This document shows positions 4,110 to 32,823 of a stretch of 64,000 bases of DNA, piece by piece. The DNA is from a phage, in sequence record PZ171033.1; one strand, written 5' to 3'. The number at the start of each line of letters is the position of its first letter. Within the stretch, counting starts at the first letter, position 1. A program made the translations under genes and the position numbers. The notes below the pieces were generated by a model. It made no database searches. It saw only the letters and a program-made list of their open reading frames with translations, and was not told the DNA's origin.

Positions 4110-4113
4110 TCTG

Positions 4114-12754: not shown

Positions 12755-13712
12755 TGTCTCACTGGCTCTGGCTGTATGGCTATTACATGATGAGTACGAT
12801 TACGTAGACAATCCTAAGTATCTGTCTGTTACTACATTGCTTAAGCCCATTAAGCAAATCGTCATGAAGCATCGTGTAGATTTGAGTGACCAGTCAATTG
12901 ATGTTATGGATTTCGTCTCAACATCAATGGGTACTGGTTTACATGACTCTATCGAGAAAGCCTGGAAGTTAGGTCATAAGACTGCATTGAAGAAGCTAGG
13001 TTATCCTCAGCGTGTAATTGATGCAGTAGTCATTAATCCAACCAAAGCAGACTTTGATACTAACCCTGACCTTATCCCAATCTACATTGAACAACGTGGA
13101 ACCAGGGTAGTTAAGGGTTGGACTATCGGTGGTAAGTTCGACATCGTAACAGAAGGTCTATTACAGGACTTTAAGTCTACCTCAACCTATTCCTGGGTTG
13201 CTGGTTCCCGTGATGATGAACACAAGATGCAAGGCAGCTTGTATCGTTGGATTCACAACGACATCATTACTGAGGATGTAATTCGTATTAACTACATCTT
13301 CACTGACTTCATGAAGCACATGGCTAATAGCAATCCGAACTATCCTGCTAATCGTATTATGCATAAGGATATTCCACTGCTATCTGTCGATAAGACTGAA
13401 CGTTGGGTAGAAGAGAAGATTCACCTCATTGAGAAGTACTGGAATGCACCTGAAGAGGAAATTCCTGAGTGTACTGACGAGGAGTTGTGGCGAACAGAGC
13501 CACAGTTCAAATACTTCTCTGATGCTTCTAAGGTAGATGTACCTGGAGCCAGAAGTACCAAAAACTTTGACGATATGGCATCTGCTCGTATCTTCATGGC
13601 TGAAAAAGGTGGCAAGGGTGCTATCAAGGTCGTGGAGGGGCAGGTTAAGCGTTGTCTGTACTGCCCTGTCGCATCCATTTGCAAACAAAGAGAGAGATAT
13701 TTTCCATCATGA
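12732..13712 (+). CDS. PD-(D/E)XK nuclease, Cas4/RecB-like, with C-terminal cysteine cluster
   Basis: D...E-x-K-like segment FDIVTEGLLQDFK and C-terminal CLYCPVASIC. Confidence 0.5.
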   Translation: MKITNNHDVSLALAVWLLHDEYDYVDNPKYLSVTTLLKPIKQIVMKHRVDLSDQSIDVMDFVSTSMGTGLHDSIEKAWKLGHKTALKKLGYPQRVIDAVVINPTKADFDTNPDLIPIYIEQRGTRVVKGWTIGGKFDIVTEGLLQDFKSTSTYSWVAGSRDDEHKMQGSLYRWIHNDIITEDVIRINYIFTDFMKHMANSNPNYPANRIMHKDIPLLSVDKTERWVEEKIHLIEKYWNAPEEEIPECTDEELWRTEPQFKYFSDASKVDVPGARSTKNFDDMASARIFMAEKGGKGAIKVVEGQVKRCLYCPVASICKQRERYFPS

Positions 13713-15862
13713 GTATTGACCTTACCGGAGTAGTGCATCATCCGGCGATTGAAGAAATCGTAGATGTGCTCTGCAATAAAACCCAGAATAATGACCGGGG
13801 ATTTTTCCGTGTCGAAGTAGCCTACTTCTTGGCTAAAATGGCATCCTGCATGGGTGCAACCATCGTAACTAAAGATCGTGGTGACCTGCCGGTAAACATC
13901 TACGCTATAGCGTTGGCTACATCTGGTTTCGGTAAAGGTCACTCAGTAAATATCATTGAAGACGGGTTCATGACTGGCTTCCGTAAACGCTTTATGGAAG
14001 ACACCATGCCCGTCATTGCAAATGATCGTTTATGGAAGATTGCTAACGAACGTGCTGCTCGTCAAGGTACAGACCAGAATGATGAGTTTGATAAAGTCGA
14101 AGCAGAATATAAACGTGCTGGAGCATATCCGTTTACGTTTGACTCCGGTACTCCACCAGCAGTTAAGCAACTACGGCATAAACTGTTAATGGCTGGATGT
14201 GGTTCAATCAACCTTCAGATTGATGAAATTGGTTCAAACCTGTTGGCTAACACAGATGTATTAACCCTGTTCCTGGAGCTGTATGACCAGGGTAAGGTTA
14301 AGCAGAAACTAACCAAAAATACTGCTGAAAGTGTTCGTGGTGAAGAACTGGATGGTAAAACTCCAGCTAACCTGTTGCTGTTTGGTACACCAAGTAAGCT
14401 ACTAGATGGTGGTCAGACCGAAGATCAGTTCTATGACTTCCTTGATACAGGGTATGCACGTCGTTGTCTATTTGCCATTGGGCACTTAGACAAACGAGCA
14501 CATGCAACAATGTCTCCGGAAGAAATCTACCGTAACCTGATTAAGCAGGATAACGTACAGTCTCTGGGTAAGTGGGCTAACCACTTCCATAGTCTGGCTG
14601 ACCCAAACCTGTTTGGCTTTAAGATGGTTGTAGAAGATGCTGTGGGTATTGCTCTGATTACTTACAAAATTGATTGTGAGAAACAAGCAGAAGCTATGGC
14701 TGACCACGAAGAAATTCGTAAAGCTGAAATTTCCCACCGTTACTTCAAAGCACTTAAACTGGCTGGAGCACTGGCGTTTGTTGACCAGAGTTCATTCATT
14801 GAAATGTCCCACCTTAAACAAGCAATCTTGCTTGTAGAGGAATCCGGGGCAGCATTCCAGGGTATTCTCAATCGTGAGAAAGCCTATGTGAAGCTGGCTA
14901 AGTATATCGCTTCTGTAGGTAAAGAAGTGACTCATGCTGACTTGCTAGAGTCATTGCCGTTCTATAAGAGTGGCAATGCAGCTCGTAATGAGATGATGAC
15001 CCTTGCTACAGCATGGGGCTACAAACAGCACATCATCATTAAGAAAACCTTCAATGAAGGTATTGAGTTCTTCCGTGGTGAAACTCTGAAAGAAACTGAC
15101 ATCAATGAGATGATAGTGGCATATAGTGATAGCTTTGCTTATGACTACATTGGTGAACGTGTACCGTTCGACCAGTTGCATGTATTAACCCAAGCTCCCG
15201 GTATGCACTGGGTAAACCATCACATGAAGAATGGACATCGTTCTGAAGAGAACGTTATTCCAGGATTTAACATGATTGTTATCGACTGTGATGGTGGAGT
15301 ACCACTGCATACGTGCCATGAACTGATGAAGGAATATAAGTTCATGACTTATACCACTAAGCGTCATTCTGATGAACAGAATCGCTTCCGTCTGATTATT
15401 CCAATGAACTATGAGTTACACCTCGATACTGAGGAATACAAAGAGTTCATGAATAACGTTATGTCCTGGCTACCATTCGAAACGGATGAATCTGCTAACC
15501 AACGAGCCAAGAAGTGGATGTCCTGCGAGACTGGTTCCTATCATTACAATCTTGAAGCAAATCTGTTGGACGTGCGTGACTTTATTCCTCGTACTAGTAA
15601 GAACGAGCAGTTCCAGAACCAGATGAAGGAAGTACAGTCGTTGGATAATCTGGAGCGTTGGTTCGCTAGTCGTATTGCTACCGGTAATCGTAATAATCAA
15701 ATGATTAAGTACGCACTGGCATTGGTTGACAGTGGTTGGGATTTTGCCCAAGTACAGCAAGCCGTCCACTCATTCAATAAGAAACTGGCTAATCCATTGC
15801 CGGATGATGAATTGAATGCAACCGTAATGGTCACCGTGGCTAAACGCTTTGCTGGTAAGTAA
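13709..15862 (+). CDS. putative DNA primase (AEP/prim-pol-like DxD motif)
   Basis: MIVIDCDGG motif; size and position as N4-type primase; start set to ATG 13709. Confidence 0.45.
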   Translation: MSIDLTGVVHHPAIEEIVDVLCNKTQNNDRGFFRVEVAYFLAKMASCMGATIVTKDRGDLPVNIYAIALATSGFGKGHSVNIIEDGFMTGFRKRFMEDTMPVIANDRLWKIANERAARQGTDQNDEFDKVEAEYKRAGAYPFTFDSGTPPAVKQLRHKLLMAGCGSINLQIDEIGSNLLANTDVLTLFLELYDQGKVKQKLTKNTAESVRGEELDGKTPANLLLFGTPSKLLDGGQTEDQFYDFLDTGYARRCLFAIGHLDKRAHATMSPEEIYRNLIKQDNVQSLGKWANHFHSLADPNLFGFKMVVEDAVGIALITYKIDCEKQAEAMADHEEIRKAEISHRYFKALKLAGALAFVDQSSFIEMSHLKQAILLVEESGAAFQGILNREKAYVKLAKYIASVGKEVTHADLLESLPFYKSGNAARNEMMTLATAWGYKQHIIIKKTFNEGIEFFRGETLKETDINEMIVAYSDSFAYDYIGERVPFDQLHVLTQAPGMHWVNHHMKNGHRSEENVIPGFNMIVIDCDGGVPLHTCHELMKEYKFMTYTTKRHSDEQNRFRLIIPMNYELHLDTEEYKEFMNNVMSWLPFETDESANQRAKKWMSCETGSYHYNLEANLLDVRDFIPRTSKNEQFQNQMKEVQSLDNLERWFASRIATGNRNNQMIKYALALVDSGWDFAQVQQAVHSFNKKLANPLPDDELNATVMVTVAKRFAGK

Positions 15863-15918: not shown

Positions 15919-16671
15919 ATGTCCGAAGTAATTCCCAATGATATGAACACTCAGCTAATCCTGATTGCAGGATTCTCAGCGAGTGGTAAATCAGCATCAC
16001 TGCGTAACATCAGGAACCAGGAACGCTGGCTCTATCTGAACACCGAAGCAGGTAAACGTCTGCCTTTCCGTAACAAGTTCAATACTTACAACATCGAAGA
16101 CCCTTATCAAATCTGGGAAGCATTTGATGTTGCATCTCCTAGTGGAGAAATGGCAGATGATGTTGATGGTATCATTATTGACTCAGCAACCTTTATGATG
16201 GATATGCTGGAATCCCAGTACGTGTTGCCATCTGCAAACACGCAGAAGGCATGGGGAGATTTTGCACAGTTCTTTAAGATACTGCTGCAACAGAAAGTCG
16301 TTAAGTTTGGTAAGCCAGTAATTATTACTGCTCATGCTAAAGACGAACTTGATGAAGCTGCTGGTGTAATGAAAACATTCATCCCAGTGAAAGGCTCTCT
16401 GAAGAATAACGGGCTTGAAGCCTACTTCTCTACTGTGGTTTACGCAGAACGTGTAGACATTAAAGAGCTGGAGAAGTACGGAAACAAGATGTTAGAAATT
16501 ACGGAAGAAGAACGTGACTTAGGATATAAGCACGTATTCCAGACCCGTCCAACCAAGAAGTCAGTAGGTAAACGACTTCGTTCCCCAATGGGTATGTTCG
16601 ATAAGTCTGAGACTTATATCGACAACGATGCCCAGAAACTCTTAGACCACCTGGCTGAATACTACGCTTAA
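15919..16671 (+). CDS. P-loop ATPase (RecA/AAA-like)
   Basis: Walker A GFSASGKS near N-terminus; 250 aa. Confidence 0.55.
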   Translation: MSEVIPNDMNTQLILIAGFSASGKSASLRNIRNQERWLYLNTEAGKRLPFRNKFNTYNIEDPYQIWEAFDVASPSGEMADDVDGIIIDSATFMMDMLESQYVLPSANTQKAWGDFAQFFKILLQQKVVKFGKPVIITAHAKDELDEAAGVMKTFIPVKGSLKNNGLEAYFSTVVYAERVDIKELEKYGNKMLEITEEERDLGYKHVFQTRPTKKSVGKRLRSPMGMFDKSETYIDNDAQKLLDHLAEYYA

Positions 16672-16710: not shown

Positions 16711-17514
16711 ATGTCATTGTTCAGTAATCTGAAAGAAAAAACCAAAAACGTTGAAGCTGCTAAAGACTCCCTGGGTGGGGGTGGTTTCGGTGCAAAAGAA
16801 ACCGATATCTACACCGGTAATGTAAAAGTAGCTTACGTAGGTAAAGCTGACTCTGGTGCAGACTGGATGCAGTTAATCATTGATGACTTGAAGAACTCTG
16901 ATGGCGTACCTGCCGGTGAGTTCCGTGCACAGGTGTACTTCACTTCTGGTAATGCTAAAGGCAACAAGCCGACTTACGAGAAGAACGGTAAAGAATACTT
17001 CCTGCCTGGCTACACTGTCATTAATGACATGATGCTGATGGCTACTGGTACTGAACTGCCTGAAGCAGACTTCGAAGAAAAGATTGTTAAAGTCTATGAC
17101 TTCGATGCTAAAGCGGAAGTTAATAAATCAGTCATGGTTCCAGTTGATCTGTTAAACCAGACTGTTACCTTCGCTCTGGAAAAAGTTCTGGAATCCAAGC
17201 AGGTTAAAGGCGACAACGGTTATGTTGACTCCGGTGAAACCCGTGAAGTAAACGAGATTCAGAAAGTGTTTCACCCGGAACTGCTGGTCACAGTCGTCGA
17301 GGCTCAGGAAGCAGAGAAGGCTGAAAAAGAACTGACCCCAGAACTGGCTGTATTCTATGCAGCATGGCTGGAAAAGAACAAAGGCAAGACTCGTGACAAG
17401 ACCAAGAGTTCTGCCGGTGGTAATGGTAAAGGTGGCTTGCCTCCTAAACCAGGTGCAGGTGCTGGCACGGGTACTGCTCCTGCTGGTGGTAAATCACTGT
17501 TCGGTAAACGTTAA
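16711..17514 (+). CDS. putative single-stranded DNA-binding protein (N4 SSB-like by size and position)
   Basis: 267 aa with glycine-rich C-terminal tail; located after primase/ATPase. Confidence 0.4.
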   Translation: MSLFSNLKEKTKNVEAAKDSLGGGGFGAKETDIYTGNVKVAYVGKADSGADWMQLIIDDLKNSDGVPAGEFRAQVYFTSGNAKGNKPTYEKNGKEYFLPGYTVINDMMLMATGTELPEADFEEKIVKVYDFDAKAEVNKSVMVPVDLLNQTVTFALEKVLESKQVKGDNGYVDSGETREVNEIQKVFHPELLVTVVEAQEAEKAEKELTPELAVFYAAWLEKNKGKTRDKTKSSAGGNGKGGLPPKPGAGAGTGTAPAGGKSLFGKR

Positions 17515-18068
17515 TGAAAATCCCAATTGTCGGTGCAGACATTAGTCTCCGCAATTGGGGTTTAGCTCGTGGGATGCTGGACATTGAGTCCGGCGTCTTC
17601 GAGCAGGTCGAACTTAAACTGGTTCAAACTGAAGTTGACCACAACAAACAAGTTCGAACCAACTCCAAAGATATACAAGCCGCTCACGATTTGTTTCTTG
17701 GTTGTGAGGAATGGTTACGGTCTGCTAAAGCAGTGTTCGTAGAAGTACCAGTAGGCTCTCAGTCTGCTAACGGTATGAAATCCTATGGTGTATGCATAGG
17801 ATTAATCGGTGCATTTCATGCATTGGGTTGTCCAATCTTTGAAGTATCCCCAATTGAAAACAAACTTGCACTGGTCGGTGATAAAACTGCATCCAAAGAC
17901 ACGATGATCCGTGCTGCTCATGCCATCTATCCCGAAGCCAACTGGCTCACGGATAAGAAAGGCAAACTTCTGAATAAGAATGAGCACTTAGCAGATGCAA
18001 TCGGTGCAATCCATGCTGGTGTAAATCTCCCAGCTTTCCAGAACCTCATTAAGTTATTAAAGGCGTAA
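17514..18068 (+). CDS. RuvC-like Holliday junction resolvase
   Basis: N-terminal KIPIVGADISLRNWGLA resembles RuvC/YqgF first motif. Confidence 0.5.
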   Translation: MKIPIVGADISLRNWGLARGMLDIESGVFEQVELKLVQTEVDHNKQVRTNSKDIQAAHDLFLGCEEWLRSAKAVFVEVPVGSQSANGMKSYGVCIGLIGAFHALGCPIFEVSPIENKLALVGDKTASKDTMIRAAHAIYPEANWLTDKKGKLLNKNEHLADAIGAIHAGVNLPAFQNLIKLLKA

Positions 18069-19242: not shown

Positions 19243-19243
19243 G

Positions 19244-19313
19244 GTCGGGGTAGCACGTAGGCATGTGCGGATGGTCGCTACTTCCCTCGCTGGTTCGAAT
19301 CCAGCCCCCGACT
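19244..19313 (+). tRNA. tRNA-like element (non-canonical anticodon arm)
   Basis: 7/7 acceptor stem GTCGGGG/CCCCGAC, D arm GCAC/GTGC, T arm GCTGG-TTCGAAT-CCAGC; anticodon arm does not pair canonically by hand. Confidence 0.35.
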
Positions 19314-19864
19314 TACTGACATCCTATCAATGAGTACATTAGGCTAACGTGCGGAGGTTTACACTGTAGCCGGTGTAGGTGGAGAAGACGGCAGGGTAGC
19401 TACCTGTGCTTAGTGTACTCTTTGATAGTTTTCGTAAGCGATTATGCGGTTTTTTAGAAACGAACCAATAACATAAATGCAAACGATGATGTTGTTCTGA
19501 TGGCGGCGTAATAGCCTGTAAGTCAGCAAGGTCTTCCGACTCCTTGTAAGCAAATTCGGCGCAGTGGCCCGCTGTGATTAATAATGGGCACACAACAGGT
19601 AAGAGCATTTAGGCTACTGAGAAATCATCCGAGGCAATCAGACCTATCTTCTGTTAAGTGCTCTTTCCGTTGTGGTGAATGCGCAGGCTGATGCGCAGTG
19701 GGACGTGGCTGACTCACGAGGATGGCTCAAGCGAATAAGCAAGCTCGACGCCGCCGAATAAGCGCCTTATGCCGGAGATCAGCACCGGCCACCACAACAA
19801 GTCCAGACGATATCTGAGTGACTATAAAAACAGATGGAGCCAGGTGGAATCCCTGGCAACTAAT

Positions 19865-19930
19865 TCCGGTGTAGGTACTAGTGTCGTGCACGGCATGAGC
19901 ATTCTGGTTCGAGTCCAGACGCCGGAACCA
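19865..19930 (+). ncRNA. short tRNA-like element with encoded CCA
   Basis: Acceptor TCCGGTG/CGCCGGA, T arm TCTGG-TTCGAGT-CCAGA, 3' ACCA; only 31 nt between acceptor and T stem. Confidence 0.3.
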
Positions 19931-19932
19931 AT

Positions 19933-20056
19933 TATCAGTTGCACGAGATGGCTTGACATGTTCAAGTTTGGACTAAGTGTGACACCGCTAGATTGGAGGG
20001 CTGCTGCGGTAAGCTATAGACTCCAACCGGAGGTTCGAATCCTTCACTGATAACCA
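19933..20056 (+). ncRNA. 124-nt tRNA-like RNA with encoded CCA
   Basis: T arm GGAGG-TTCGAAT-CCTTC, 3' ACTGATA-A-CCA; only complementary 5' strand TATCAGT is 122 nt upstream. Confidence 0.25.
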
Positions 20057-20414
20057 ATTCAAAGTAGCATTGCACTAACCCATCCCGGAGTTCAAAGGCC
20101 AAACATGGAGCAGTGCTACTCTGAATTAGAAGAATTATGGTGGGTCTGGTGAAGTAGATAGGGTTCGATTCCCTCCGGTAGAGTAATCTACTAGCGTGCT
20201 TGGTGCACGAATAAGACTTAATACTGGTGGTTCAATTCCATCCCCCACTGCCTATTTGAGGTGTAACAGTTAAATCCAGTTGCCGGAAGTGCTATTCTAG
20301 ATACGCTGCCAATGTGTGAACGGTAAGGCTGTACAGGACTCGGACTCCCACCTCAAACCAAAGTCGCCAGATACTTATGGCAAACGGGTAGTAACGAACT
20401 AGTCATTCGTCAAA

Positions 20415-20432
20415 CGCCCACCCTATTATGAG
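20415..20432 (+). promoter_or_regulatory. promoter-like motif copy 2 (CACCCTATTATG)
   Basis: Near-identical to copy 3. Confidence 0.3.
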
Positions 20433-20610
20433 TCAGCAAGAACGCCTTCATTTAAACTTAAACAAAAAAGCTTAACGCAATAATTATGTAGGGGTATGTA
20501 AGGATTGCGAAGAAGGAGCCAGTTAAAGTCTGGCATGACTCACCTAATTGAGGCTGTACTTATGTTCTACAGTAGGTGCACAACACTGGGCTGCTACACC
20601 CAGAGGTACA

Positions 20611-20628
20611 GCCTCACCCTATTATGGG
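20611..20628 (+). promoter_or_regulatory. promoter-like motif copy 3 (CACCCTATTATG)
   Basis: Near-identical to copy 2. Confidence 0.3.
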
Positions 20629-20693
20629 TAGCCTATACTAGTTATAGGGCAGATAATCTGTGGCAGTGTAAGGCTGCACTACCCTTTCATTAA

Positions 20694-20769
20694 TACCCGG
20701 TAGGCTTAGTGGTAAAGCCCCACTAGTAAACCAACTAGGACGCAGGTTCGAATCCTGTCCGGGTAGCCA
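20694..20769 (+). tRNA. tRNA-like gene with encoded CCA (6-nt anticodon loop)
   Basis: Acceptor TACCCGG/CCGGGTA, D arm GGCT/AGCC, T arm GCAGG-TTCGAAT-CCTGT, discriminator G + CCA; anticodon stem CTAGT/ACTAG with 6-nt loop. Confidence 0.4.
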
Positions 20770-20774
20770 TTTAT

Positions 20775-20859
20775 GCCCACTTAGCTCAGTGGTAGAGCGC
20801 AGGAAAGCTTCGAGAGAACAAGGTGTCTGTGGTCACTGGTTCAAATCCAGTAGTGGGTA
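20775..20859 (+). tRNA. tRNA-like gene, 85 nt, no pairable anticodon arm
   Basis: Acceptor GCCCACT/AGTGGGT, canonical D arm TAGCTCAGTGGTAGAGC, T arm ACTGG-TTCAAAT-CCAGT; 36 nt between D and T arms with no 5-bp/7-nt stem-loop. Confidence 0.4.
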
Positions 20860-21174
20860 CTTATTTGCTGCAATATTCCCATAGGGAATGGTGTCGTATA
20901 CGCCACCTAGTTTCTGGTGAAACTCCAGATGCAGCAATCCATTCAGCAGTAACATAGTCCTGATTGCATTGCACTCTAAAGACAACACTGGTAAGACAGT
21001 CCAGTGGCTGCTATTGTATTGTTATTCCCCTCGACGGGAATTTCGCTAGTGAAGGTAACACTTAAAAATCCAAACCCACGTCTTACTGCTATCGGGCTAT
21101 CAACCCACAGTCGCTTAACACACTAGTGGTAGTAGTTTGACGACCTAGCCTCGTTAGCTGCGTTAAAGCTACTA

Positions 21175-21210
21175 AGTCCCCTAGAGGGGCGGCTCTAGGG
21201 GACTTTTTTA
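21175..21210 (+). terminator. strong intrinsic terminator
   Basis: 12-bp stem AGTCCCCTAGAG/CTCTAGGGGACT then T6. Confidence 0.7.
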
Positions 21211-21238
21211 TTTGAGTATTAATAGCCGGATAATCAAT

Positions 21239-21397
21239 ATGATTGACCTAATCTCAACCCCGTATGCCTATGAGGTAACGGACAACCGAGGGCATAAGTA
21301 CTTGGTATTTGCAGGTAGCGTAGCCTATAACAACGCAGTCATGTTTAAGTACAAACTCAAACCACTCTATGAGGCTAATAATGGCAACAGTAAGTAA
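21239..21397 (+). CDS. hypothetical protein
   Basis: Short ORF, start taken at ATG 21239. Confidence 0.4.
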   Translation: MIDLISTPYAYEVTDNRGHKYLVFAGSVAYNNAVMFKYKLKPLYEANNGNSK

Positions 21398-21761
21398 AGA
21401 AGCAATCGAAGCTAAGATTAAGAGCGTCTACTATTTCAATGGAGCGGATGCAGTGAAGTCTGCATTCGTTGACCCATCTGCACTACCGGCAGATGATTTG
21501 GCTAACCTGGGTCTGGTAACCTATTGTGTAATCATTCTGGAAAACAACTTTAAAGTTGAAGGTGTATCTGCTTGCGTAGACCCAACTATCTATGATGAAC
21601 AGAAGGGTCGTCAATATGCATATGAAAATGCATTCAATAAGATTTGGGAATTAGAGGGTTACCTACTACGTCAGGCACTGCACGAGAAAGAAGAGACTGC
21701 TAAAGCTCTGGCTTCCTTTGCAGAAAACAATACCTGTGATGGTGGTGGTTGTACAATCTGA
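21381..21761 (+). CDS. hypothetical protein
   Basis: ATG 21381 with GAGG upstream. Confidence 0.5.
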   Translation: MATVSKEAIEAKIKSVYYFNGADAVKSAFVDPSALPADDLANLGLVTYCVIILENNFKVEGVSACVDPTIYDEQKGRQYAYENAFNKIWELEGYLLRQALHEKEETAKALASFAENNTCDGGGCTI

Positions 21762-21843
21762 TCCAAAGGTGTAAGGTAGTTTTTACCGAAAGGTACTGAA
21801 CTACCCGACAAAGTAGTAAGGCTCTAGAAGCCGAAACAAAACA

Positions 21844-21866
21844 AGCCCTCCTAGCGAGGGCTTTAT
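21844..21866 (+). terminator. terminator-like hairpin
   Basis: AGCCCTC-CTAGC-GAGGGCT then TTTAT. Confidence 0.45.
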
Positions 21867-21880
21867 CATTTGAGGTAGTT

Positions 21881-22372
21881 ATGTCAGAAGAAATTAAAGT
21901 CCATTTCACCAACTACATTGGAACCAAGTGTGTAAATGGATTCCGGATGAACAAGGAAACATATTGCAAACTCCGTGGCTGGGATGTGCCTGCTAATGAA
22001 GACCCATTAGAAGTAGGTTACTTAGTAGAATACCCAGATTCTAAACCTAACCATGAACAATTCCGTGGTTATATTAGCTGGTCACCAAGGGCTGCATTTG
22101 AAGCTGCATATTGTGATGTAGATAAGGGTTGTACTTTTGGTCACGCAGTAGAACTTATAAAACTGGGTCACAGACTGACCCGTAAAGGCTGGAACGGTAA
22201 GGGAATGTATATTACCCTAGTATCTGGTGAAAATTGGGCTATGGATAAACATGAGAATACCGTATGTGAGAAACGGGATTGGTTGGGCATCAAAACTGTT
22301 GATGACCAGTTTATGCCTTGGGTTCCTTCCCAATCGGATGTATTAGCTGAAGATTGGGTATTAGCTCAGTAA
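21881..22372 (+). CDS. DUF2829-domain protein (Tad2-like candidate)
   Basis: C-terminal FGHAVELIKLGHRLTRKGWNGKGMYITL ... SDVLAEDWVL matches DUF2829 signature from memory; RBS GAGGTAG. Confidence 0.5.
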   Translation: MSEEIKVHFTNYIGTKCVNGFRMNKETYCKLRGWDVPANEDPLEVGYLVEYPDSKPNHEQFRGYISWSPRAAFEAAYCDVDKGCTFGHAVELIKLGHRLTRKGWNGKGMYITLVSGENWAMDKHENTVCEKRDWLGIKTVDDQFMPWVPSQSDVLAEDWVLAQ

Positions 22373-22377
22373 GAATT

Positions 22378-22406
22378 AAAGCCCCTCATTTGAGGGGCTT
22401 TTTTAT
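22378..22406. terminator. bidirectional intrinsic terminator
   Basis: GCCCCTC-ATTT-GAGGGGC flanked by A and T tracts; lies between convergent genes. Confidence 0.65.
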
Positions 22407-22407
22407 T

Positions 22408-25400
22408 TTAGTTTATCAGGTTCATCCAAGGGTTCAGGTTGTGAGCACGTAAGCCTTGACCGAAACCGAAGGAGTAACCAAGATTGCCCTGTGCAGCAAT
22501 ACTAAAGATGTTGTCCTGAATAGGCAGGCCAACGTTACCAAACATGGTAGGGGTTGGGGCCAACATAGCCATAGCAGCATGAACTGGGTTATTACGAATC
22601 ATGGACACTGCAACTTTTGCAGAACGAATCTTAAAGTTGTAGAACCACATCAGACCAACACTTTCCATATACCCACGGAAACGACCTGGCAGACGATCAT
22701 AGTTAATAAACTCTTCCGTTACACGTCCTAGTGCTTCTTCGCGAGTCTTACCTTTACGCTGAGTTAATTCATCATAGATGATTGCTTTAGCAATAAAGTC
22801 AGAGTACTCAACCGTCTTCTGGATACCCTGGAACAAAGCAGTATCCTTAGTGATAAGTGCATAACGACCAGCATTACGTACAGACTTAGGCAGCTTATCA
22901 GCCAACTTATCCATGTACTCGTGAAGTTTACCTTCAGTAATCAGGATGTCGTCACGACCAATACCAGCGTCTGCAATTGAAGAGAACTCACCTGCTTCTA
23001 ACAGGGGCCAGATACTCAAACGCTTATGACTATCAGAGATGGACTGAATCTCAGCCTTAAGTTTACGAATCTGGTTCGGGTTAGTAGCTGCACGTAATTC
23101 TGCTTCTGCATCTACCTGACGCAGACGAGATTTCAGATACTGGTTAATCTCAGCAGTTTTCTGTGGAATGCTCTTAGCAATGTTCTTAACAGGTACACCA
23201 CGAGCAACCATCTGGTAAAGGTTAGCCAGGAAGTTAACAGCAGGTACGACTACTGACTTAACTACAATCAGGGTCTTAGCTTCTTTAACTAAATTCTGAA
23301 CCAGGTTCTCACCACCCATTACGTATTTATAGGCACGGTTACCGAAGACACCCAACATAGCTTTCTTGAAGGTATCCAGTGTTTCTTGGGACCAACGAGA
23401 GTTACCAGACCAGGCATCACCAACAGAAGCTGCACGATAGCCGAGAGCATCATTGAGCATGTCACGACGTACCCACAGCTCACCAGGACCAAACAGACTT
23501 TCTGCTTTCTGACGTGTTTCACTATTCATCAGCTTAAGTGCATCGGCAGTTACTGGGTCCAGTTTAGAACCAAGAAGGTTAACGTACTGGGACTTATTAG
23601 AAGCAGACATCTTAATGTCGTTCTCATACATGCTATGCAGGTTCTCAATTAGCATATCGTTGAAACGCTGAGCCTTAGCCTCTTCTACCTGACGACCACG
23701 CCATACACCGATTGCACGAGCAAGATGGTTCTCACCCTCAATGTGCTTCAGCATGTTAGGGTCAATGGATTGCTCATAAGCAACCACATTACCATTGGCA
23801 TCATATACAGGCAGAAGTGGTTCATTACCACGTTCACCACGAGCCAGTGCTTTAGTGATACGATCTACAGAAGGCTTGTCAGTAATACGACCAGCTACCA
23901 TGGTTCCCATAGTAAAGCCTGTACCAAGGTCCACACCACCAGCAGTATTGCGAACGTTCTGTAAGATACCCTGTGAGAATGGGGCCTGTGCCTGTACTGG
24001 TGCGAAGTAGTAGCTACGAGCAGGACCACGATTAGCAGAGCTACCCTGATATGTACCCAGTCGTACATAGGATTTCTCAATCAAATCAGCAAACTGACTA
24101 TCTTCAGCAACAATCAGATTAACACCCTGTTTAGTCTCACTAGGGATATGCCCTTTGTACTGGTTCAGGGTTGCACGCATATCAGATTTGGCTTTAGCCA
24201 TTTCATCTTTACGCTGACCAACCAGGTAAGAGGTGGCAAAGTCCATCCCATCAACTTCTGTCTGAGCCAGTGAAGATAACATCTCACGGTCGGACTTGTT
24301 CATTGCTTCCAGTGCATACAGGGTAATCAGTTTATCCAGTTGAGCTACATCTACAGTAGAGCGTGCAGCCTGACGTTCACCCAGCATACGGGAGATTGCA
24401 GTAGCATTACGCAGCAGGTTTTTACCGACAGTACCATTAATCATGTACTGAGCCAGTTGCTTAGATTTACGGTTAATCAGAGGCCAGTTACGACCAGCTT
24501 GTTTCTGCAAATCTGCTTCCAGCTTATTCACTTCACGGTCAACAATCTTCTGGTCAGTCAGTAAGTCACGGATTTCAGCCAGTGACATAGTGTCACGCAG
24601 GACAGCTAAATCTGTTTTACCCATACCAGTATGCATTACTTTCCACTCATCATTAGTCAGCTTACGGCTGAACTTAGATGCGATAGTAGTAGGCAGATGT
24701 TCACGGAACTGCTGACGGTCTGCCTGCACCTGTGCACGTACTGCTTTAATCAAATCGTATACAGAAGCATTGCTCTTAGTACGACCGGTTAAGTCATTAA
24801 CCAGGTCATGGAAAGGTTGCCATACCTTACCCTGGTTCATTGCAGCCATAACACCTTCAGCTACGATTGCACCATTCTTCTCTGTAGCAATAGCAGCTAC
24901 CAGTTGTGCAGCATGAGCAGCACCTTTAACCAATGGATTATTGGTATTGGCTGCAACTTCACGAGCACCTTCCAAAGCACGGGTAGATAGTACATCAATA
25001 GAATCCACCAGATACTGGTTAGCACGGTCAATAGCATTACCAGTAGGAGTAGCAACGGAATCATAGAAGGATTCTGCATTAAGACTGGTCTGCATAATCG
25101 TCTGAGCCAGTGCATCCATACCTTCCTGTACGTTAGTAGCTTTAGTATCACCTGCTACACGAGCATTCAGACTAGCCATTGCAGCAGTACCAATGTTAGT
25201 CAGCATTGCATCAACGGTATTACCTGATTTCTTATCTGCTTTCATGACAGGAATGTCAGCCAGTACTTTACGTACTTCTTCACTTACCATTGCCAGACCA
25301 ACAAAGGTAGGCAGTAAAGAAGATCGACCTTGTGCATCAAACTCAATGTTGTTAGCACCCATGATGGTATCGAACTTCTGCTGTGCATAATAACGATCAG

Positions 25401-28400
25401 CAGGGTTAGTACTATCTGGGTCAGCCATAAATGCTTCGACGGTCAGATTCTTAGTAACATGCGTGTAGTATTCCTGTGCACGAGCCATAGCAGCAGGGTT
25501 AACAGCAGCCTCGGTAGCCAGTGCAGCAACAATATTGGTAAAGAGACGCTGTTCCTGCATATTCATGGTGAAGCCATGAGCCTGAACATCACGAGTTACT
25601 TTAGTTGCATTTACTACTGCATCAGAGAACTTACCTTTGCGAATTACTTGCTGTACTGGTTCTGAACCAATGTAGTTAGTAATTAGCTTATCAAAGGTTT
25701 TCCCTAGCTCTTCCAGACGAGTATTTTCACCATACGCTTTGTTATGGAACAGAGTAGTATCTTTGGCTACAGCAGCAGTAGGAGCTTGCCCACGCATTAC
25801 TACAGCAGAGTTAAACAGTAAGCCAGAGAACATATCTTCTGCATTAGCAGGAGCTTTCTTACGTCCAAATACCAGACGTTTGATTGCTTCATATACAGCC
25901 TGAACCATAGTTTTAAGTGCAGTGGTTTTCTTCTGCTTACTAATCAGTTCTCGGTTGGTTAAACCCCAAGCCATGTACTCGTTCAGTGCAGCAGCTTTAG
26001 CCATTGCTGGTTCAATAAAGCCATTGGATAGGTGACCATTAATGGTATTCAGTGCATCAGCATATGCTTCTCGTACTGCCGGAGATTCATCCCTAACATC
26101 CAGAGCACGGAACTGATTCATCAGGTCTTCGATGTTCTGGACTGCTTCATTAGGAGTGCCTTCATAGTGAGCCAGTACAGATTCAAAAGTAGAAGCATGT
26201 ACCAATTCATGAACCAGAGTCTCTAAGGAAGGGGTAACTAAGTAGATGGTTTTATCTTCAAAGTTAGTCCAGCCGTATGCATTACCAGCTTCAGCAGCTT
26301 CAATATCTTCCGGTGCTGGGCGAGTAATGTTCTTCTCAATAGCATAGGCATCCAATTGAGCAGGTGTACCGTAAACAACTTTATAGTCTTTAGCAGCAAG
26401 GGATTTCTGTATTTCTTTCAATACTTCTTGCTGTTCAGGAGACATCTCTTTAGCCAGTTTAGTAATGGCAGTGTTAGACAGCAGACGTACACCAGACTTC
26501 AGTACACGACCAACCTGTTCCATCGCCGGTACTTCTTCCACTGGTTCTGCTTTAGTAGCACGTACTGCTTCACGACGCTTATTTAATTCAGCATCAAACA
26601 GTTCGTTCAGCTTAGCTACTTGCTGGTCTACAGTAAGACCTTCCAGAGAGATTTTACCGTTGTTCACATAAGGAGCACCTACGGCAGCCATCTGGTCAAC
26701 AGTGACTTGTACCTGGTCCATTACCTTGTGACGAATATCTACACCCAGAGCAATGTTACGCAGGTTACGTTCAATCTGCTCAGCACCGACACGTAACAGG
26801 TCATCAGTAGCACCCTCACGTTGGTCATACTCCAGAGCAGACTTAGCGATAGCCTGTTTGGTTTCATCAGACAGTTTACTGAAGTCTACGTTCTTCATGA
26901 ACTTAGCGTAGGAGTCATAAACATTCTTGATAGGGTTACCCTGCCAGGAAGTATATACAGCCTCATTAGCTTTGCGACTTGCATCAGTGATGTCATTGAT
27001 ACCAATGTTCATACCATCAAAGATTTTCAGGGTATTCTTCGGAGCACCTTTCATAGTAGAAAGTGTCTGCATCATCATGCCATCACCAGTACCGATGGTC
27101 ATAAATGGAATACCTGCAACACCTGCCTGTGAAGGAGCATAAATGCTCATTGGCACACGCATACGGTCATCTAAGTTAGTAGCCAGTACTTGGTTAGCAA
27201 CATCAGTATTCTCACTACCAGCAATGTAGAAAGTCTGTGAACCAGTCTCAATCATTGGAGCCAGTGAAGATAATGATTCCTGGATTTCATTCAGTTCTTT
27301 CTGCGTTAAGAAATCACCTTTCTTCCAGGTTGGGTCTTTTTCTTTTTCTGCCAGCTTAGCCTGTACTGCTTGCTGGAACATATCCTGCAATACCAGAGAT
27401 TGAATCTGGGTAGCCTTCTGCAAGTTCTCGGTAGAGTGCATCAGACCTTCACCAACAGTATTACGGATACCAGTACGCATTGGTTCAACGAACAGGTGGA
27501 GCATGTTCTCTTGTAAGTTCTTCAGGGCATTACCGGATACGGTAAATTTCTGGGGGTCTAACTTACCAGTCAGAGCACCATCTACTTGCTGAATAGACAA
27601 CTCACCTTTACGCATAACTGGAACATTACCAGTCAGTGCTTCCATAGAAGTAAGGAAAGTATCCAACATAGCCTGAGCATCAGCTTCAGACGCAGCCTCC
27701 TTACCAAACATTGCCATAGCTGGGGAAATGCTAGGGTCAGCAGCTCGTGCTTGCAGAACGTCACTGAAGCGTTCGTAGATGGTATCAGTAATTGCACTGA
27801 CCATCTTGCCAGCAATACCACGAGCACCAGAACCATAGATGGTAATGGTCAGTGGGTTTTTAGCAATACCACGTTTCAGGTCCAGAGTACCGTCTTCATT
27901 CAGGTTAAAGTCTTTAATGAACAAGTCCATTAACTTCTGGAGATGATTCATCTGGCTCATAACTGGAACGTTGTTACGGTAAGTAGTACGTAACTCATTC
28001 AGTGCTTGTTGAAGACCATTGGTAGATGCTTCATACAAGTCAACATTATCGTCGATAGAACAATGTTCGTTCATCGTTTTACCAGCACGACCAAAGAACA
28101 AACCACCTTTGGCAGTGTTCTTAATCCAGTCTGGAGTGAACTTACCACCAGTCATTAATACCATTGCGTTGATTGGGCCGTTGGTTACACCATCAGCTTC
28201 AACGTACAGTGGAGTAGTAAAATTAGCACGGTCATCACTGTTCAGGTAACGGGCATATTCCATCAGAGCCATGAGAGCTACGAAGGATTTATCACTACCC
28301 AGAGAGGTCTTCAGGATGTCTACTGCATCTGTCGGTAAGTGACCAGACTTATCAAACTCAACCATCATATCAACAGCAGGTTTCAGTTTACCTTCCAGAG

Positions 28401-31400
28401 CTTTAGTTAACTCTTCAGACATAACTTCACGGGACATTTTATGTACCTTGATGCCTAATGCCTGAGCCAGACCTAACTGGAAGTCAGAGAACGCTTGGCT
28501 GTTTTCATTACTCAAGTCGATAGTAGAGAAGGTTGGTAGGATTGCTTCACGAACCAGCTTACTGGATTGTGGGTTGTTCTTACCAAGCATCTGCATACGA
28601 CCTACACGGGTCATGTTATAACCGTAGTGGATAGGTGTATCCAGACCATTCTCTTGTTCTCGTATCTGATTAATTACACCGAACAGAGAATCATATGCCA
28701 TAGACACGGACAGGTTTTTACCTTCCAAAGATTTAGCAGTGTTCGCGTTCAGTAATTCTGGATTAAGAGTACCAGCACCCATCAGTTCCAGAATGTTGTC
28801 ACGCCCCAATGCTTCATAGAAGTTAACCATTGGCATATGTACACGGAACTCGGTAGCCTGTTCAGCTTTCAGTGCAGCCTTCTGTTCAGGGGTATTCTTA
28901 ACAGCAGGGTTACGCAACTGAGTCTGAGCCACAGAAGGAATGTCATCACCAAAGTACATTTTCTCTTCTGGTTCTAAGAGGACAGCTTCCTCAATAGCAG
29001 TAGGGAATTTATTAATGGCATCATTGTCATCCAACTTCTCAATGGTATACAGACCAACAGTCTTATTGGAGTCTGGGTCAATCTCAGACACATCCAACAT
29101 AGACTCTTTAACTTCACCCATCTCAATGAGAGAAGACAGAATCTCTGTAGCCATTGCCATTGGGATACCTTTGGTATAACCCAGCGGTGCATTAGGATTA
29201 CGATTCAAACCCCAGTAGGATTCAATCTTCTGAGCCAGTGAGTTAGTAGCTTCAACCAGGGTCTGGGCATTCTCGAACTCAGCCAGAATACCTTCTGGTA
29301 ACAGAGATGCTTCTACGCCTGTAATAGCAGCTACGTCTTTCATATCTTTAATGGCAGCATTCTGTGTAGTAGTCAGTCGCCATTGCAAACCAGCAAGCAC
29401 AGCAGTCTCTAACAACTGGTCGTTGAACTTAAAGGTATCCCCATCTTGTTCAACTATATTCAGCAGTTTGCCACCTACCCAACGGTTAGCTTCAGTACCT
29501 TCTGCAAAACGTTTACCAACGTTCTTATTAGCAAGGAACTTAGCCAGACGTTCAGACAAAGTAGTCTTCAGAGTTTCACCAAAGTCCATTAAGTCCTGAT
29601 AACGCTTAATCACATCACTAGTGAGAGCGTTATTTTCTTTTTGAGTGAATGCCTCAAAGCGAGCAGCAGAAGACAGTGCTTGCTTAATATCAGTCAAAGG
29701 AGATTCTGAACCAATGGTACGGGACTTAGGTTCTTCCGGTAAGGTAAATGCTTTCAGGAACTGGTTCGGTGTCTTTTCATTGTTATAGACAGGGAACACT
29801 GTTTCCATTTCTGTTTTGGTTTCAGCTACTTCCTGGATGGTATCCTCATTCTTGAGAATAGCATCTACTGTTTCAGGCTTAGTAGTAGAGACTTCTTCTG
29901 TTTTTGGACTAGTCTCCTTAGTAGGAGCAGTCTTATTTTCTACCACAGGTTTAGCTTTAGGCTGTACAGTAGTAGTGTCCTCTTGCACTGGTGCAGGAGA
30001 TTCATCAACCTGATTCACTGGTTCATTAGTCTGTTGAGACTGAGTGGCATCAAGACCACCTTGACGGAACTCTTTAACTACCTGGGCAGCAGGCTTGTTC
30101 AGACGTGAATCCAACGAGGTAACTTTCACATGAGAAACATTAAGCTCCGGGTAAGCCGTAGCAAGTGCATTAGCAATATCAGCTACGGTTTTGGCTTCCA
30201 GTCCTACTTGCTGGGCAAACTTAACAGACTTGGTATCGTAAGGATTGACACCGAGGCCAGTACGACTACGTACCCATTCACGGGAAGGCGAGAGAGCCTG
30301 ATAATGAACAGACTTATTCTTATCCGCATTCCCCGAAATCAGATGCTCATTCAACGCTCCGACCTTATTCTGCATGTGCTGGGCGAACTTCATAAAGTCG
30401 CTCAGATAAGCGGAGGCCAAATCGAAGTTACCAGAGTTATACGCAGAACGAATGCGTTTCGCATGTTGCAACGCAGAGTACTGTCCTTCATTAGAACGAG
30501 ACTCGTCGGTTTTAATCTGTTTACTAACAATGTCTTGAGGACGTAAGCCTAGTTCTTCTGCTTTAGCGTCGAACTCACGTGCACCCTGTAACAAGGCAGC
30601 AGCAGATTGCAGGGCAGCACGTTGACGATTCCCCAGTGTAATCTTACCTTCACTTGCGTGCTTCAGAACCATGTTCACTGAATCTGCATCCAGTACTTCT
30701 GGAGACACATCAGCAGCCATAGCAATGTTGTTTGCTTGGGCTTGATTAGCTTCTTCAGTAGCTTTCAGCTTACCTGCTTCAGCCTGTTCCTGAATCATGG
30801 AATGGATGGCACGGAATGCACGGAGTACTTTAGGGGTATTCTGTACGTTAGCCATCAAGCCAGAGAACTGGTCTACGATTGTAGCAGCAGGAGAACCTTG
30901 TTCCAGATTAGCCAGAGCACCTGGGTCACGGTTAATGAAGCTATCCATAGACATGATGTTGTCATACATCTGGATTGCAGCTTCCATTTGAACGTTAGGG
31001 TCTTCAGCAGTATTAACCAGGTCAGCCATCTTCTGAATAGCTTCAACACGGTTAGTGGAACCAGAAACAGCTTCACGGATTGCCGGGTTAGCTTGTTCCA
31101 ATTCTACCGGGTCAAACTTCATTGCCTGAGTTAAGTCAGCAGCATACTGGGTAGCAGCAGCTTTCTCTTCTGGAGTGATGTCCATTGCATCCACTGCTTC
31201 TTGTACAGTTGCCTGTGCTTGTTCTGCCTGAGCAGCAGCTTCCTGTGCAGCAGCATTAACCGTAGCATCAGCTACAGGGGATGCTTGTTCATTACGCTTA
31301 GCAACTTCTTCACCACGTTGAATCAGGATGTTAGTAAGAGGGGATGCAGCTTTTGCTAATGTTTTGCCAACCAGAGAAGCACCAGCCAGGGTAGTACGAA

Positions 31401-32760: not shown

Positions 32761-32823
32761 AGCATGTTTCCTGTTCAAACTTATATCGTATATAGGTAAC
32801 TTACTCTACAGTAAGCCAGTTAA

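What the first reader, a model, noticed from the sequence alone, without database searches (positions are those of the whole stretch)
21881..22372. Stand-alone DUF2829 (Tad2-like) gene bracketed by terminators
The C-terminal ~85 aa carry the DUF2829 signature (RKGWNGKGMYITL ... SDVLAEDWVL), the family that includes the Thoeris anti-defence sponge Tad2. The gene has its own RBS and terminators on both sides, and a ~75-aa N-terminal extension not typical of minimal Tad2.
Basis: partly seen in the sequence, partly recalled or inferred. Interest (0 to 1): 0.6.

Follow-up and report, generated by a model that had tools for sequence, protein, structure and literature searches.

The report
Two-domain Tad2 sponge in N4-like phage
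This phage gene encodes a genuine member of the Tad2 family, proteins that soak up bacterial alarm molecules, and it sits in a known anti-immunity hotspot; the only unusual part is its N-terminal add-on, a widespread unnamed module found almost only attached to such sponge proteins.

Summary
A 163-aa ORF at 21881-22372 (+) has a Shine-Dalgarno sequence, terminator-like hairpins on both sides, and a C-terminal Tad2/DUF2829 domain (Pfam PF11195, 82.7 bits). That domain matches solved Tad2 structures in sequence and fold, and every reported ligand-contact residue is conserved.

The window is a Gamaleyavirus (G7C/N4-like phage). The gene is the ortholog of N4 gp49, which RefSeq already labels DUF2829. 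It lies in the primase-to-vRNAP "anti-signaling hotspot" described in 2026, next to an Acb4-family sponge gene and a Bes1 ortholog, so it is not really stand-alone.

The N-terminal ~75 aa form a distinct, highly conserved module:
- It spans 1,094 clusters at 50% identity and has no Pfam, NCBIfam or close PDB match.
- About 70% of 147 representatives are fused to Tad2, Sequestin or Acb4 by my own profiles (about 80% by Pfam counts, which add Acb2/Tad1).
- It is homologous to the N-terminal domain-swapped dimerisation domain of RyR Tad (CB1 gp68).
- That domain is the only tested member. It was inactive, and it lacks 12 of the 26 most conserved positions.

The Tad2 call is ordinary. The module's role, scaffold or additional binder, is an open lead.

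The parts
21881..22372 (+). CDS for the 163-aa two-domain protein (N-module plus Tad2/DUF2829); ortholog of phage N4 gp49
   Evidence: ORF. phrog_872 covers the full length, E = 5e-65. N4 gp49 carries the same two-domain sequence, and its N-domain is 92.5% identical by tblastn. An identical protein, P0003, is present in public assemblies.
21902..22120 (+). N-terminal module (residues ~8-80): beta-beta-alpha-beta-beta-alpha fold, unnamed family, homologous to the N-terminal domain-swapped dimerisation domain of RyR Tad (CB1 gp68)
22130..22363 (+). Tad2 (DUF2829, PF11195) domain, residues 84-161, with pocket residues W104-N105-G106 and W147-V148-P149-S150-Q151-S152-D153
   Evidence: Pfam 82.7 bits. 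PDB sequence hits 9eib, 8v3e, 8sme, 8wje, 8kbi. Foldseek E ~1e-7, TMt up to 0.87. Conservation of these residues in A1, compared with the published contact residues.
21872..21875 (+). Shine-Dalgarno GAGG, 5 nt upstream of the ATG
   Evidence: Read directly from the sequence; conserved in PhAPEC5 and Mimir124.
21843..21863 (+). Upstream terminator-like hairpin between the Acb4-family gene and this gene (weak U tract, so probably leaky)
   Evidence: -13 kcal/mol, z = -2.96. Conserved in relatives. Annotated as a terminator in PhAPEC5.
22378..22401 (.). Bidirectional terminator-like hairpin between this gene and the convergent virion RNA polymerase gene
   Evidence: -18 kcal/mol on both strands; strong U run on the + strand. 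Annotated on both strands in PhAPEC5.
21369..21761 (+). Neighbouring Acb4-family (PF13876) sponge gene, ortholog of N4 gp48; part of the same anti-signaling cluster
   Evidence: Pfam 89 bits, E = 2.8e-25. PF13876 is the Acb4 family. 42% identity to the Acb4 core of Ab09 gp59.

Best explanation
The gene encodes a phage anti-defence sponge.

C-terminal domain. This is a bona fide Tad2 domain. By homology it should assemble into a tetramer. Its inter-protomer pockets, lined by W104-N105-G106 and W147/S150/S152/D153, should bind and sequester TIR-made ADP-ribose-derived alarm signals. The most likely ligand is 1''-3' gcADPR (3'cADPR) of type I Thoeris; His-ADPR or N7-cADPR are possible. Sequestration keeps the Thoeris effector from being activated.

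N-terminal module. It joins helix alpha1 of Tad2 through a very short linker. It is homologous to the RyR Tad N-terminal domain, which forms a domain-swapped dimer. It most likely pairs N-termini to stabilise or cross-link the oligomer.

Expression. The gene is expressed with the replication-gene block from the + strand, has its own ribosome-binding site, and is insulated from the convergent vRNAP gene by a bidirectional terminator. It works alongside a neighbouring Acb4-family sponge and a Bes1 ortholog, in the hotspot that N4-like phages use to collect anti-signaling genes.

Shown here: family membership, fold, pocket-residue conservation, module homology and locus context. Inferred: oligomeric state, ligand identity, in vivo activity and the role of the N-module.
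For: - Tad2 sequence: Pfam PF11195, 82.7 bits. PDB sequence hits to ModTad2 (8.5e-16), SPO1 Tad2 (2.3e-13) and HgmTad2/AcrIIA7 (3.7e-11).
- Tad2 fold: AlphaFold2 model pLDDT 91.9; Foldseek matches only Tad2 structures, E ~1e-7, TMt 0.8-0.87.
- Pocket residues: SPO1 W25/W73 and HgmTad2 W21/N22/G23, W87/L88, S90/T92/D93 align to W104/N105/G106, W147/V148 and S150/S152/D153. W104, N105, G106, W147 and S150 are invariant and D153 is at least 90% conserved across 71 homologs.
- N-module homology: HMM E = 1.5e-8 over HMM positions 2-70; BLASTP 5e-6; BFVD structural hit to the RyR-domain protein of phage TG1. The crystal-structure description of a domain-swapped dimer is quoted.
- Locus: primase, gp44, SSB, a Bes1 ortholog (41% identity, E = 3e-46), Acb4, this gene, then vRNAP. 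This matches the hotspot described.
Against: - No binding or infection experiment exists for this protein or for N4 gp49 in the literature I could search.
- Tad2 homologs differ in ligand: gcADPR, His-ADPR, N7-cADPR, cUMP/cCMP and cyclic dinucleotides. Specificity cannot be read from sequence. The best PDB sequence match is the His-ADPR binder ModTad2, by only a small margin.
- Oligomeric state could not be modelled because the tool predicts monomers only.
- The scaffold role for the N-module rests on one divergent homolog that keeps only 14 of 26 conserved positions.
Confidence: 0.75

Rival explanations
1. It is a dual inhibitor. The N-terminal module is itself an independent ligand- or protein-binding anti-defence domain, a further sponge or an effector/TIR binder, so the protein neutralises two different signals or systems, as Tad2-Acb4 and Sequestin fusions do.
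For: - In 147 representatives, Pfam finds Sequestin in 51, Tad2 in 41, Acb4 in 21 and Acb2/Tad1 hairpin in 5. The module is also fused to RyR, and about 90-aa stand-alone forms exist.
- This is the same guilt-by-fusion signal that led to the discovery of Sequestin.
- Sequence is very conserved across fusion contexts: mean column identity 54% with near-invariant polar and aromatic residues K16, R32, W34, E40, E50, N57, S66, W67, S68 and Y77.
- The only tested member, CB1 gp68_N, lacks 12 of the 26 conserved positions, including R32, G33, W34, P37, E40, E50, D53, N57, G63 and Y77. It was assayed only against type I Thoeris.
Against: - CB1 gp68_N showed no activity, and in the crystal it acts as a dimerisation element.
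- The module is net acidic (10 K+R against 13 D+E), unlike the positively charged pockets typical of sponges.
- Conserved aromatics could simply be the core of a small barrel.
Confidence: 0.3
2. The Tad2 domain mainly targets non-Thoeris signals, such as CBASS cyclic dinucleotides or c-di-GMP or Pycsar cUMP/cCMP, through the second pocket used by HgmTad2, SptTad2 and MoTad2.
For: Some Tad2 homologs bind cyclic dinucleotides or cUMP at the intra-dimer pocket. The beta2-beta3 insertion is the most variable part of the family alignment. From general knowledge, CBASS is more common than Thoeris in E. coli.
Against: The insertion here is about 19 aa (residues 115-133). That is shorter than SPO1 Tad2's 24 aa, which does not bind cyclic dinucleotides, and far shorter than HgmTad2's 41 aa, which forms the dinucleotide pocket. 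An Acb4-family gene next door already covers cyclic dinucleotides. The gcADPR pocket residues are fully conserved.
Confidence: 0.12
3. It is an anti-CRISPR of the AcrIIA7 type, as the pharokka annotation of the Mimir124 ortholog says.
For: AcrIIA7 carries DUF2829 and matches this protein (PDB 8kbi, 3.7e-11; 9kzr, 5.1e-11). The Mimir124 record labels both this gene and its neighbour 'anti-CRISPR protein'.
Against: Li et al. could not reproduce any Cas9 inhibition by AcrIIA7/HgmTad2 or other Tad2 homologs and showed it is a sponge. Yirmiya et al. reached the same conclusion. From general knowledge, E. coli hosts do not carry type II-A CRISPR-Cas. The neighbour's label is likewise explained by its Acb4 identity.
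Confidence: 0.02

Closest known systems
Tad2 (Thoeris anti-defence 2; DUF2829/PF11195): SPO1 gp34.65, ModTad2, HgmTad2/AcrIIA7
   Same: The C-terminal 80 aa share the sequence family, the fold (alpha1 plus an antiparallel sheet) and all reported ADPR-signal contact residues. It is phage-encoded, and the beta2-beta3 insertion is short like SPO1 Tad2.
   Different: It carries an extra ~80-aa N-terminal domain, absent from every Tad2 with a solved structure. Its ligand and oligomeric state are untested. It lacks the long insertion that gives HgmTad2 and SptTad2 their cyclic-dinucleotide pocket.
RyR Tad (Pectobacterium phage CB1 gp68; Fedorova et al. 2026 preprint)
   Same: Same two-part layout, with an N-terminal module followed by a signal-binding domain. 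The N-modules are homologous. Both are in the same hotspot of an N4-like phage.
   Different: The C-terminal binding domain is a RyR Repeat12-like helical domain, not Tad2. The CB1 N-module is a divergent, shortened version lacking 12 of the 26 positions conserved in the rest of the family.
Sponge-sponge fusions (Acb4-Tad2 of phage Pm86; Acb4-Sequestin of Ab09 gp59 and YH6; Tad2-Sequestin)
   Same: A single polypeptide combines a known sponge domain with a second small phage-specific domain. The locus in N4-like phages is the same.
   Different: The second domain here is neither Sequestin (no PF21825 hit; beta-rich rather than all-helical) nor Acb4, and it has no demonstrated ligand. Ab09 gp59 does not contain this module.
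Phage N4 gp49 (YP_950527.1) and Gamaleyavirus orthologs (PhAPEC5 gp82, Bp4, ECBP1)
   Same: Direct orthologs with the same two-domain architecture and the same position next to the vRNAP gene. RefSeq already labels them 'DUF2829 domain-containing protein'.
   Different: In N4 the gene overlaps the upstream Acb4 gene. In this window and other Gamaleyaviruses a 119-bp spacer with conserved hairpins separates them.

Membership tests
Tad2 / DUF2829 (PF11195) | Significant match to the family HMM above the curated threshold | tested here: met
   82.7 bits against a cut-off of 25, E = 2.7e-23, profile positions 2-72 of 73.
Tad2 / DUF2829 (PF11195) | [quoted passage not shown] | tested here: met
   AlphaFold2 model pLDDT 91.9. 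Foldseek PDB hits are exclusively Tad2 structures: 8sme, 8smf, 8wje, 9eib, 8kbi; E 1e-7 to 5e-6; TMt up to 0.87.
Tad2 / DUF2829 (PF11195) | Conserved ADPR-signal pocket residues (SPO1 W25, W73; HgmTad2 W21/N22/G23, W87/L88, S90/T92/D93) | tested here: met
   These align to W104/N105/G106, W147/V148 and S150/S152/D153 (residue lists). W104, N105, G106, W147 and S150 are invariant and D153 is at least 90% conserved in 71 homologs.
Tad2 / DUF2829 (PF11195) | Homotetramer with pockets formed between protomers | not testable with these tools
   Only monomer prediction is available. SEC-MALS or AlphaFold-Multimer is needed.
Tad2 / DUF2829 (PF11195) | Binds and sequesters a TIR-derived signal and rescues phage from Thoeris | not testable with these tools
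   Requires biochemistry and plaque assays. No published test of this protein or of N4 gp49 was found.
RyR Tad N-terminal module (unnamed family) | Sequence homology to CB1 gp68 residues ~1-70 | tested here: met
   HMM from A1 against gp68: 20.8 bits, E = 1.5e-8 for the single comparison, HMM positions 2-70 aligned to residues 4-65. BLASTP 39% identity over 41 aa, E = 5e-6.
RyR Tad N-terminal module (unnamed family) | Same fold as the N-terminal domain of RyR-domain phage proteins | tested here: met
   Foldseek against BFVD: Yersinia phage TG1 RyR-domain protein, E = 1.7e-4, probability 1.00, TMq 0.69. The CB1 record names that protein as gp68's homolog.
RyR Tad N-terminal module (unnamed family) | Domain-swapped dimer (beta1 exchanged) | not testable with these tools
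   Reported for CB1 gp68 only. The structure was not found in the PDB copy.
Sequestin (PF21825), considered for the N-terminal module | Match to PF21825; short all-alpha-helical dimer | tested here: not met
   No PF21825 hit even at E <= 10. The model is a beta-beta-alpha-beta-beta-alpha fold. In P0002 the module and PF21825 occupy separate regions, 1-70 and 79-136.
Lockin, considered for the N-terminal module | Curved beta-rich protomer forming hexamers; reported absent from complete phage genomes in INPHARED | tested here: inconclusive
AcrIIA7-type anti-CRISPR | Inhibition of Cas9 | not testable with these tools
   Sequence similarity exists. The activity itself was not reproducible in the literature.
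N4-like 'anti-signaling hotspot' (Fedorova et al. 2026) | Located between the DNA primase and the virion RNA polymerase, interspersed with SSB and a RuvC-like Bes1 ortholog, and carrying known signaling inhibitors | tested here: met
   Gene order: primase 13652-15862 (PriCT_1), AAA_24 15919-16671, SSB-position ORF 16711-17514, Bes1 ortholog 17514-18068 (41% identity, E = 3e-46), Acb4 21369-21761, this gene, then vRNAP 22408-32778 on the - strand (definition).

The most novel reading that the evidence does not exclude
The N-terminal module defines an uncharacterised family of at least 1,094 clusters at 50% identity. It acts as a hub partner for at least five unrelated signal-sponge families: Tad2, Sequestin, Acb4, Acb2/Tad1 and RyR. 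In its canonical form it may be a functional anti-defence domain in its own right, for example a binder of an immune signal not yet assayed or of a host immune protein, rather than a passive dimeriser. If so, N4 gp49 and this protein would be dual inhibitors, and the module could serve as bait for finding new sponge domains among its many unassigned fusion partners.
Probability: 0.3. Interest if true: 0.75.

Novelty: new variant of a known kind. Interest (0 to 1): 0.42.

Why it matters
The Tad2 assignment adds little. RefSeq already labels the orthologs, and a 2026 preprint maps this hotspot.

What could matter is the N-terminal module. It is abundant, strongly conserved, missing from Pfam and NCBIfam, and found mostly welded to immune-signal sponges of unrelated folds. 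It is also present in the classic model phage N4, which is genetically tractable.

Working out whether it only dimerises sponges or binds something itself would clarify how phages build multi-signal inhibitors. Its diverse unassigned fusion partners are a ready list of candidate new sponge families.

Tried and rejected
- **Sequestin identity for the N-module:** rejected. No PF21825 hit, and the secondary structure differs.
- **Lockin identity:** unlikely.
- **N-module in Ab09 gp59.** I asked whether this experimentally studied Acb4-Sequestin fusion hides the N-module. It does not.
- **Published tests of N4 gp49.** I searched the Panoptes and sponge papers and found none. One 2026 preprint that mentions phage N4 could not be opened.
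- **AFDB50 fold search:** unavailable.
- **First homolog search with the N-module.** The word-indexed search returned only 2 hits. The exhaustive HMMER search was needed.
- **Anti-CRISPR reading:** rejected on literature grounds.

Full report
**Observation.** The window contains a 163-aa ORF at 21881..22372 on the + strand. A GAGG Shine-Dalgarno lies 5 nt upstream of the ATG (read). Terminator-like hairpins flank the gene. The upstream one is at 21843-21863, with an 8-bp stem, -13 kcal/mol, z = -2.96 and a weak U tract. The downstream one is at 22378-22401, with a 10-bp stem and -18 kcal/mol on both strands, and a strong U run on the + strand. The scan found 9 terminator-like sites in 2.5 kb against 2.1 expected. 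The equivalent sites are annotated as terminators in phage PhAPEC5.

**The C-terminal domain is Tad2.**
- Pfam PF11195 ('Tad2-like', formerly DUF2829) matches residues 85-161 at 82.7 bits, with a cut-off of 25 and E = 2.7e-23.
- phmmer against PDB sequences finds ModTad2 (9eib/8v3e, ~9e-16), SPO1 Tad2 (8sme/8wje, ~2e-13), HgmTad2/AcrIIA7 (8kbi, 3.7e-11) and SptTad2.
- An AlphaFold2 model built on a 71-sequence alignment has mean pLDDT 91.9.
- Foldseek against the PDB returns only Tad2 structures as significant matches (E 1e-7 to 5e-6, TMt up to 0.87).
- The ligand-contact residues reported for SPO1 Tad2 are W25 and W73. Those for HgmTad2 are W21/N22/G23, W87/L88 and S90/T92/D93. They align to W104/N105/G106, W147/V148 and S150/S152/D153. 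W104, N105, G106, W147 and S150 are invariant and D153 is at least 90% conserved across the 71 homologs.
- The beta2-beta3 insertion is about 19 aa. That is shorter than SPO1 Tad2's 24 aa and far shorter than the 41-aa insertion that forms the cyclic-dinucleotide pocket in HgmTad2. A second pocket of that type is therefore not expected.

**Genome context.**
- The 1.4-kb region is 87-91% identical to Gamaleyavirus genomes (PhAPEC5, Bp4, ECBP1, Mimir124 and others).
- The downstream convergent 3,456-aa ORF is the virion RNA polymerase.
- RefSeq already labels the ortholog 'DUF2829 domain-containing protein' in PhAPEC5, Bp4, ECBP1 and phage N4, where it is gp49.
- The upstream gene (21369-21761, 130 aa) belongs to PF13876 at 89 bits. 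Chang et al. define that family as the Acb4 cyclic-dinucleotide sponges. It is the ortholog of N4 gp48 and is 42% identical to the Acb4 core of Ab09 gp59.
- Further upstream lie the primase, an AAA_24 protein, an ORF in the SSB position, and a 184-aa protein 41% identical (E = 3e-46) to Ab09 gp60/Bes1.
- This is the 'anti-signaling hotspot' between primase and vRNAP that Fedorova et al. (bioRxiv 2026) describe in N4-like phages, carrying Tad2, Tad3, Acb4, Sequestin and Bes1/2.
- So the gene is not stand-alone in a functional sense. In N4 the two sponge genes overlap (TAATG) with no spacer, so the hairpin-bracketed layout is specific to Gamaleyaviruses.

**The N-terminal extension is a discrete domain.**
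- Residues ~8-80 fold confidently as beta-beta-alpha-beta-beta-alpha (pLDDT 91-97).
- They have no Pfam hit at E <= 10 apart from one chance-level match (Taq-exonuc, E = 0.091, 13.3 bits against a cut-off of 25).
- They have no NCBIfam hit and no PDB sequence hit, either as a single sequence or as a 53-sequence profile.
- An exhaustive phmmer search of 1.84 billion cluster representatives finds 1,094 clusters at E <= 1e-3 and 432 at E <= 1e-10.
- A Pfam scan of the top 147 shows Sequestin (PF21825) in 51, Tad2 in 41, Acb4 in 21 and Acb2/Tad1 hairpin in 5.
- My own HMM-based architecture tally gives: N-Sequestin 39; N-Tad2 38, plus 4 with split hits; Acb4-N-Sequestin 10; Acb4-N 7; N-Acb4 4; and 42 with the module alone or with unassigned tails. 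Those tails are highly diverse, with 42 singletons among 51 segments.
- The N-Tad2 architecture itself occurs in more than 100 clusters down to 45% identity, including a Novosphingobium chromosome.
- Across fusion contexts the module keeps about 54% mean column identity. Near-invariant residues are G14, K16, M23, Y28, R32-G33-W34, P37, E40, G46-Y47-L48-V49-E50-Y51, N57, G63-Y64, S66-W67-S68-P69, F73 and Y77.

[quoted passage not shown] In the crystal it forms a domain-swapped dimer. It showed no anti-type-I-Thoeris activity when expressed alone. I fetched gp68 and tested homology:
- The N-module HMM aligns end-to-end to gp68 residues 4-65 (20.8 bits, E = 1.5e-8 for the single comparison).
- BLASTP gives 39% identity over 41 aa (E = 5e-6).
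- Independently, Foldseek against BFVD matches the N-module model to the N-terminus of the RyR-domain protein of Yersinia phage TG1 (E = 1.7e-4, TMq 0.69). The CB1 record names that protein as gp68's homolog.

The module is therefore the same family. However, gp68 is a divergent member that keeps only 14 of 26 highly conserved positions. It lacks R32, G33, W34, P37, E40, E50, D53, N57, G63 and Y77, among others. The other experimentally studied fusion in this hotspot, Ab09 gp59, does not contain the module. The canonical module therefore appears to be untested.

**Mechanism.** The best-supported reading (confidence about 0.75) is a Tad2-type sponge. The C-domain tetramerises and sequesters a TIR-derived ADPR signal, blocking Thoeris effector activation. 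The most likely ligand is 3'cADPR. His-ADPR or N7-cADPR are possible, because Tad2 homologs vary in specificity. The N-module attaches directly before the tetramerisation helix alpha1. By homology with RyR Tad it most likely dimerises, stabilising or cross-linking the assembly.

The main alternative does not exclude this (about 0.3). Here the canonical N-module has its own binding function. Three things support it: the fusion pattern, which mirrors sponge-sponge fusions; the conserved polar and aromatic surface; and the existence of stand-alone forms. Three things count against it: the negative CB1 result, the module's net acidic charge, and the lack of any pocket analysis.

The anti-CRISPR label in the Mimir124 record traces back to AcrIIA7. 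Two studies contradict it.

**Verdict.** The finding itself is ordinary: an already annotated ortholog of N4 gp49 in a described hotspot. The added value is defining the N-terminal extension as a large, unnamed, sponge-associated module that is conserved in phage N4 and has an unresolved function.

Noticed in passing
window 21369-21761 (+): The upstream neighbour is an Acb4-family (PF13876) sponge gene, ortholog of N4 gp48 and 42% identical to the Acb4 core of Ab09 gp59. Pfam's family name says 'N4 Gp49' although RefSeq numbers this gene gp48, so the names do not match.
   Followed up: partly
window 17514-18068 (+): A 184-aa protein 41% identical (E = 3e-46) to Ab09 gp60 (Bes1). Bes1 is the RuvC-like 'broad evasion of signaling' protein whose mechanism is unknown. 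It has no Pfam hit.
   Followed up: partly
window 19243-20859 (+): A gene-poor stretch holds tRNA-like genes. ARAGORN calls tRNA-Ala(cgc) at 19243-19314 and an odd 'tRNA-???' with a 2-base anticodon at 20694-20769. Rfam adds a solid tRNA at 20775-20859 (53.9 bits) that ARAGORN missed, plus weak sub-threshold tmRNA-like matches at 19408-19560.
   Followed up: no
window 21775-21805 (+): A second conserved hairpin lies in the Acb4-Tad2 spacer: GGTAGTT...AACTACC, with an inner TACC-GAAA-GGTA stem and tetraloop. It is nearly identical in PhAPEC5 and Mimir124, and the whole spacer is absent from N4. Its function (RNA element, promoter or processing site) is unexplained.
   Followed up: no
window 21174-21205 and 21212-21397 (+): A strong terminator-like hairpin (13-bp stem, -24.3 kcal/mol) sits immediately before a 61-aa ORF (phrog_34266, unknown function). 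That ORF overlaps the start of the Acb4-family gene by 29 nt and may be another small hotspot gene.
   Followed up: no
proteins P0123-P0270 (homologs of the N-module): 51 unassigned segments of at least 45 aa are fused to the N-module, and 42 of them are singletons by phmmer clustering. Some look like divergent Tad2 or Sequestin, while others have no recognisable family. They are candidates for new sponge domains.
   Followed up: partly
locus L002 (Escherichia phage Mimir124, PQ310662.1) 3269-4268: Pharokka labels both the Acb4-family and the Tad2 orthologs 'anti-CRISPR protein'. The Tad2 label probably traces to AcrIIA7; I did not trace the source of the neighbour's label. Mimir124 also has an extra 76-aa gene (phrog 9565) between Tad2 and vRNAP, which shows that the locus content varies.
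   Followed up: no
methods of bioRxiv 10.1101/2025.08.24.671296: That study excluded sponge homologs carrying 'PF21825 or PDB 6E3C' as extra domains. I could not establish what 6E3C corresponds to. It is not detectably the N-module described here.
   Followed up: partly
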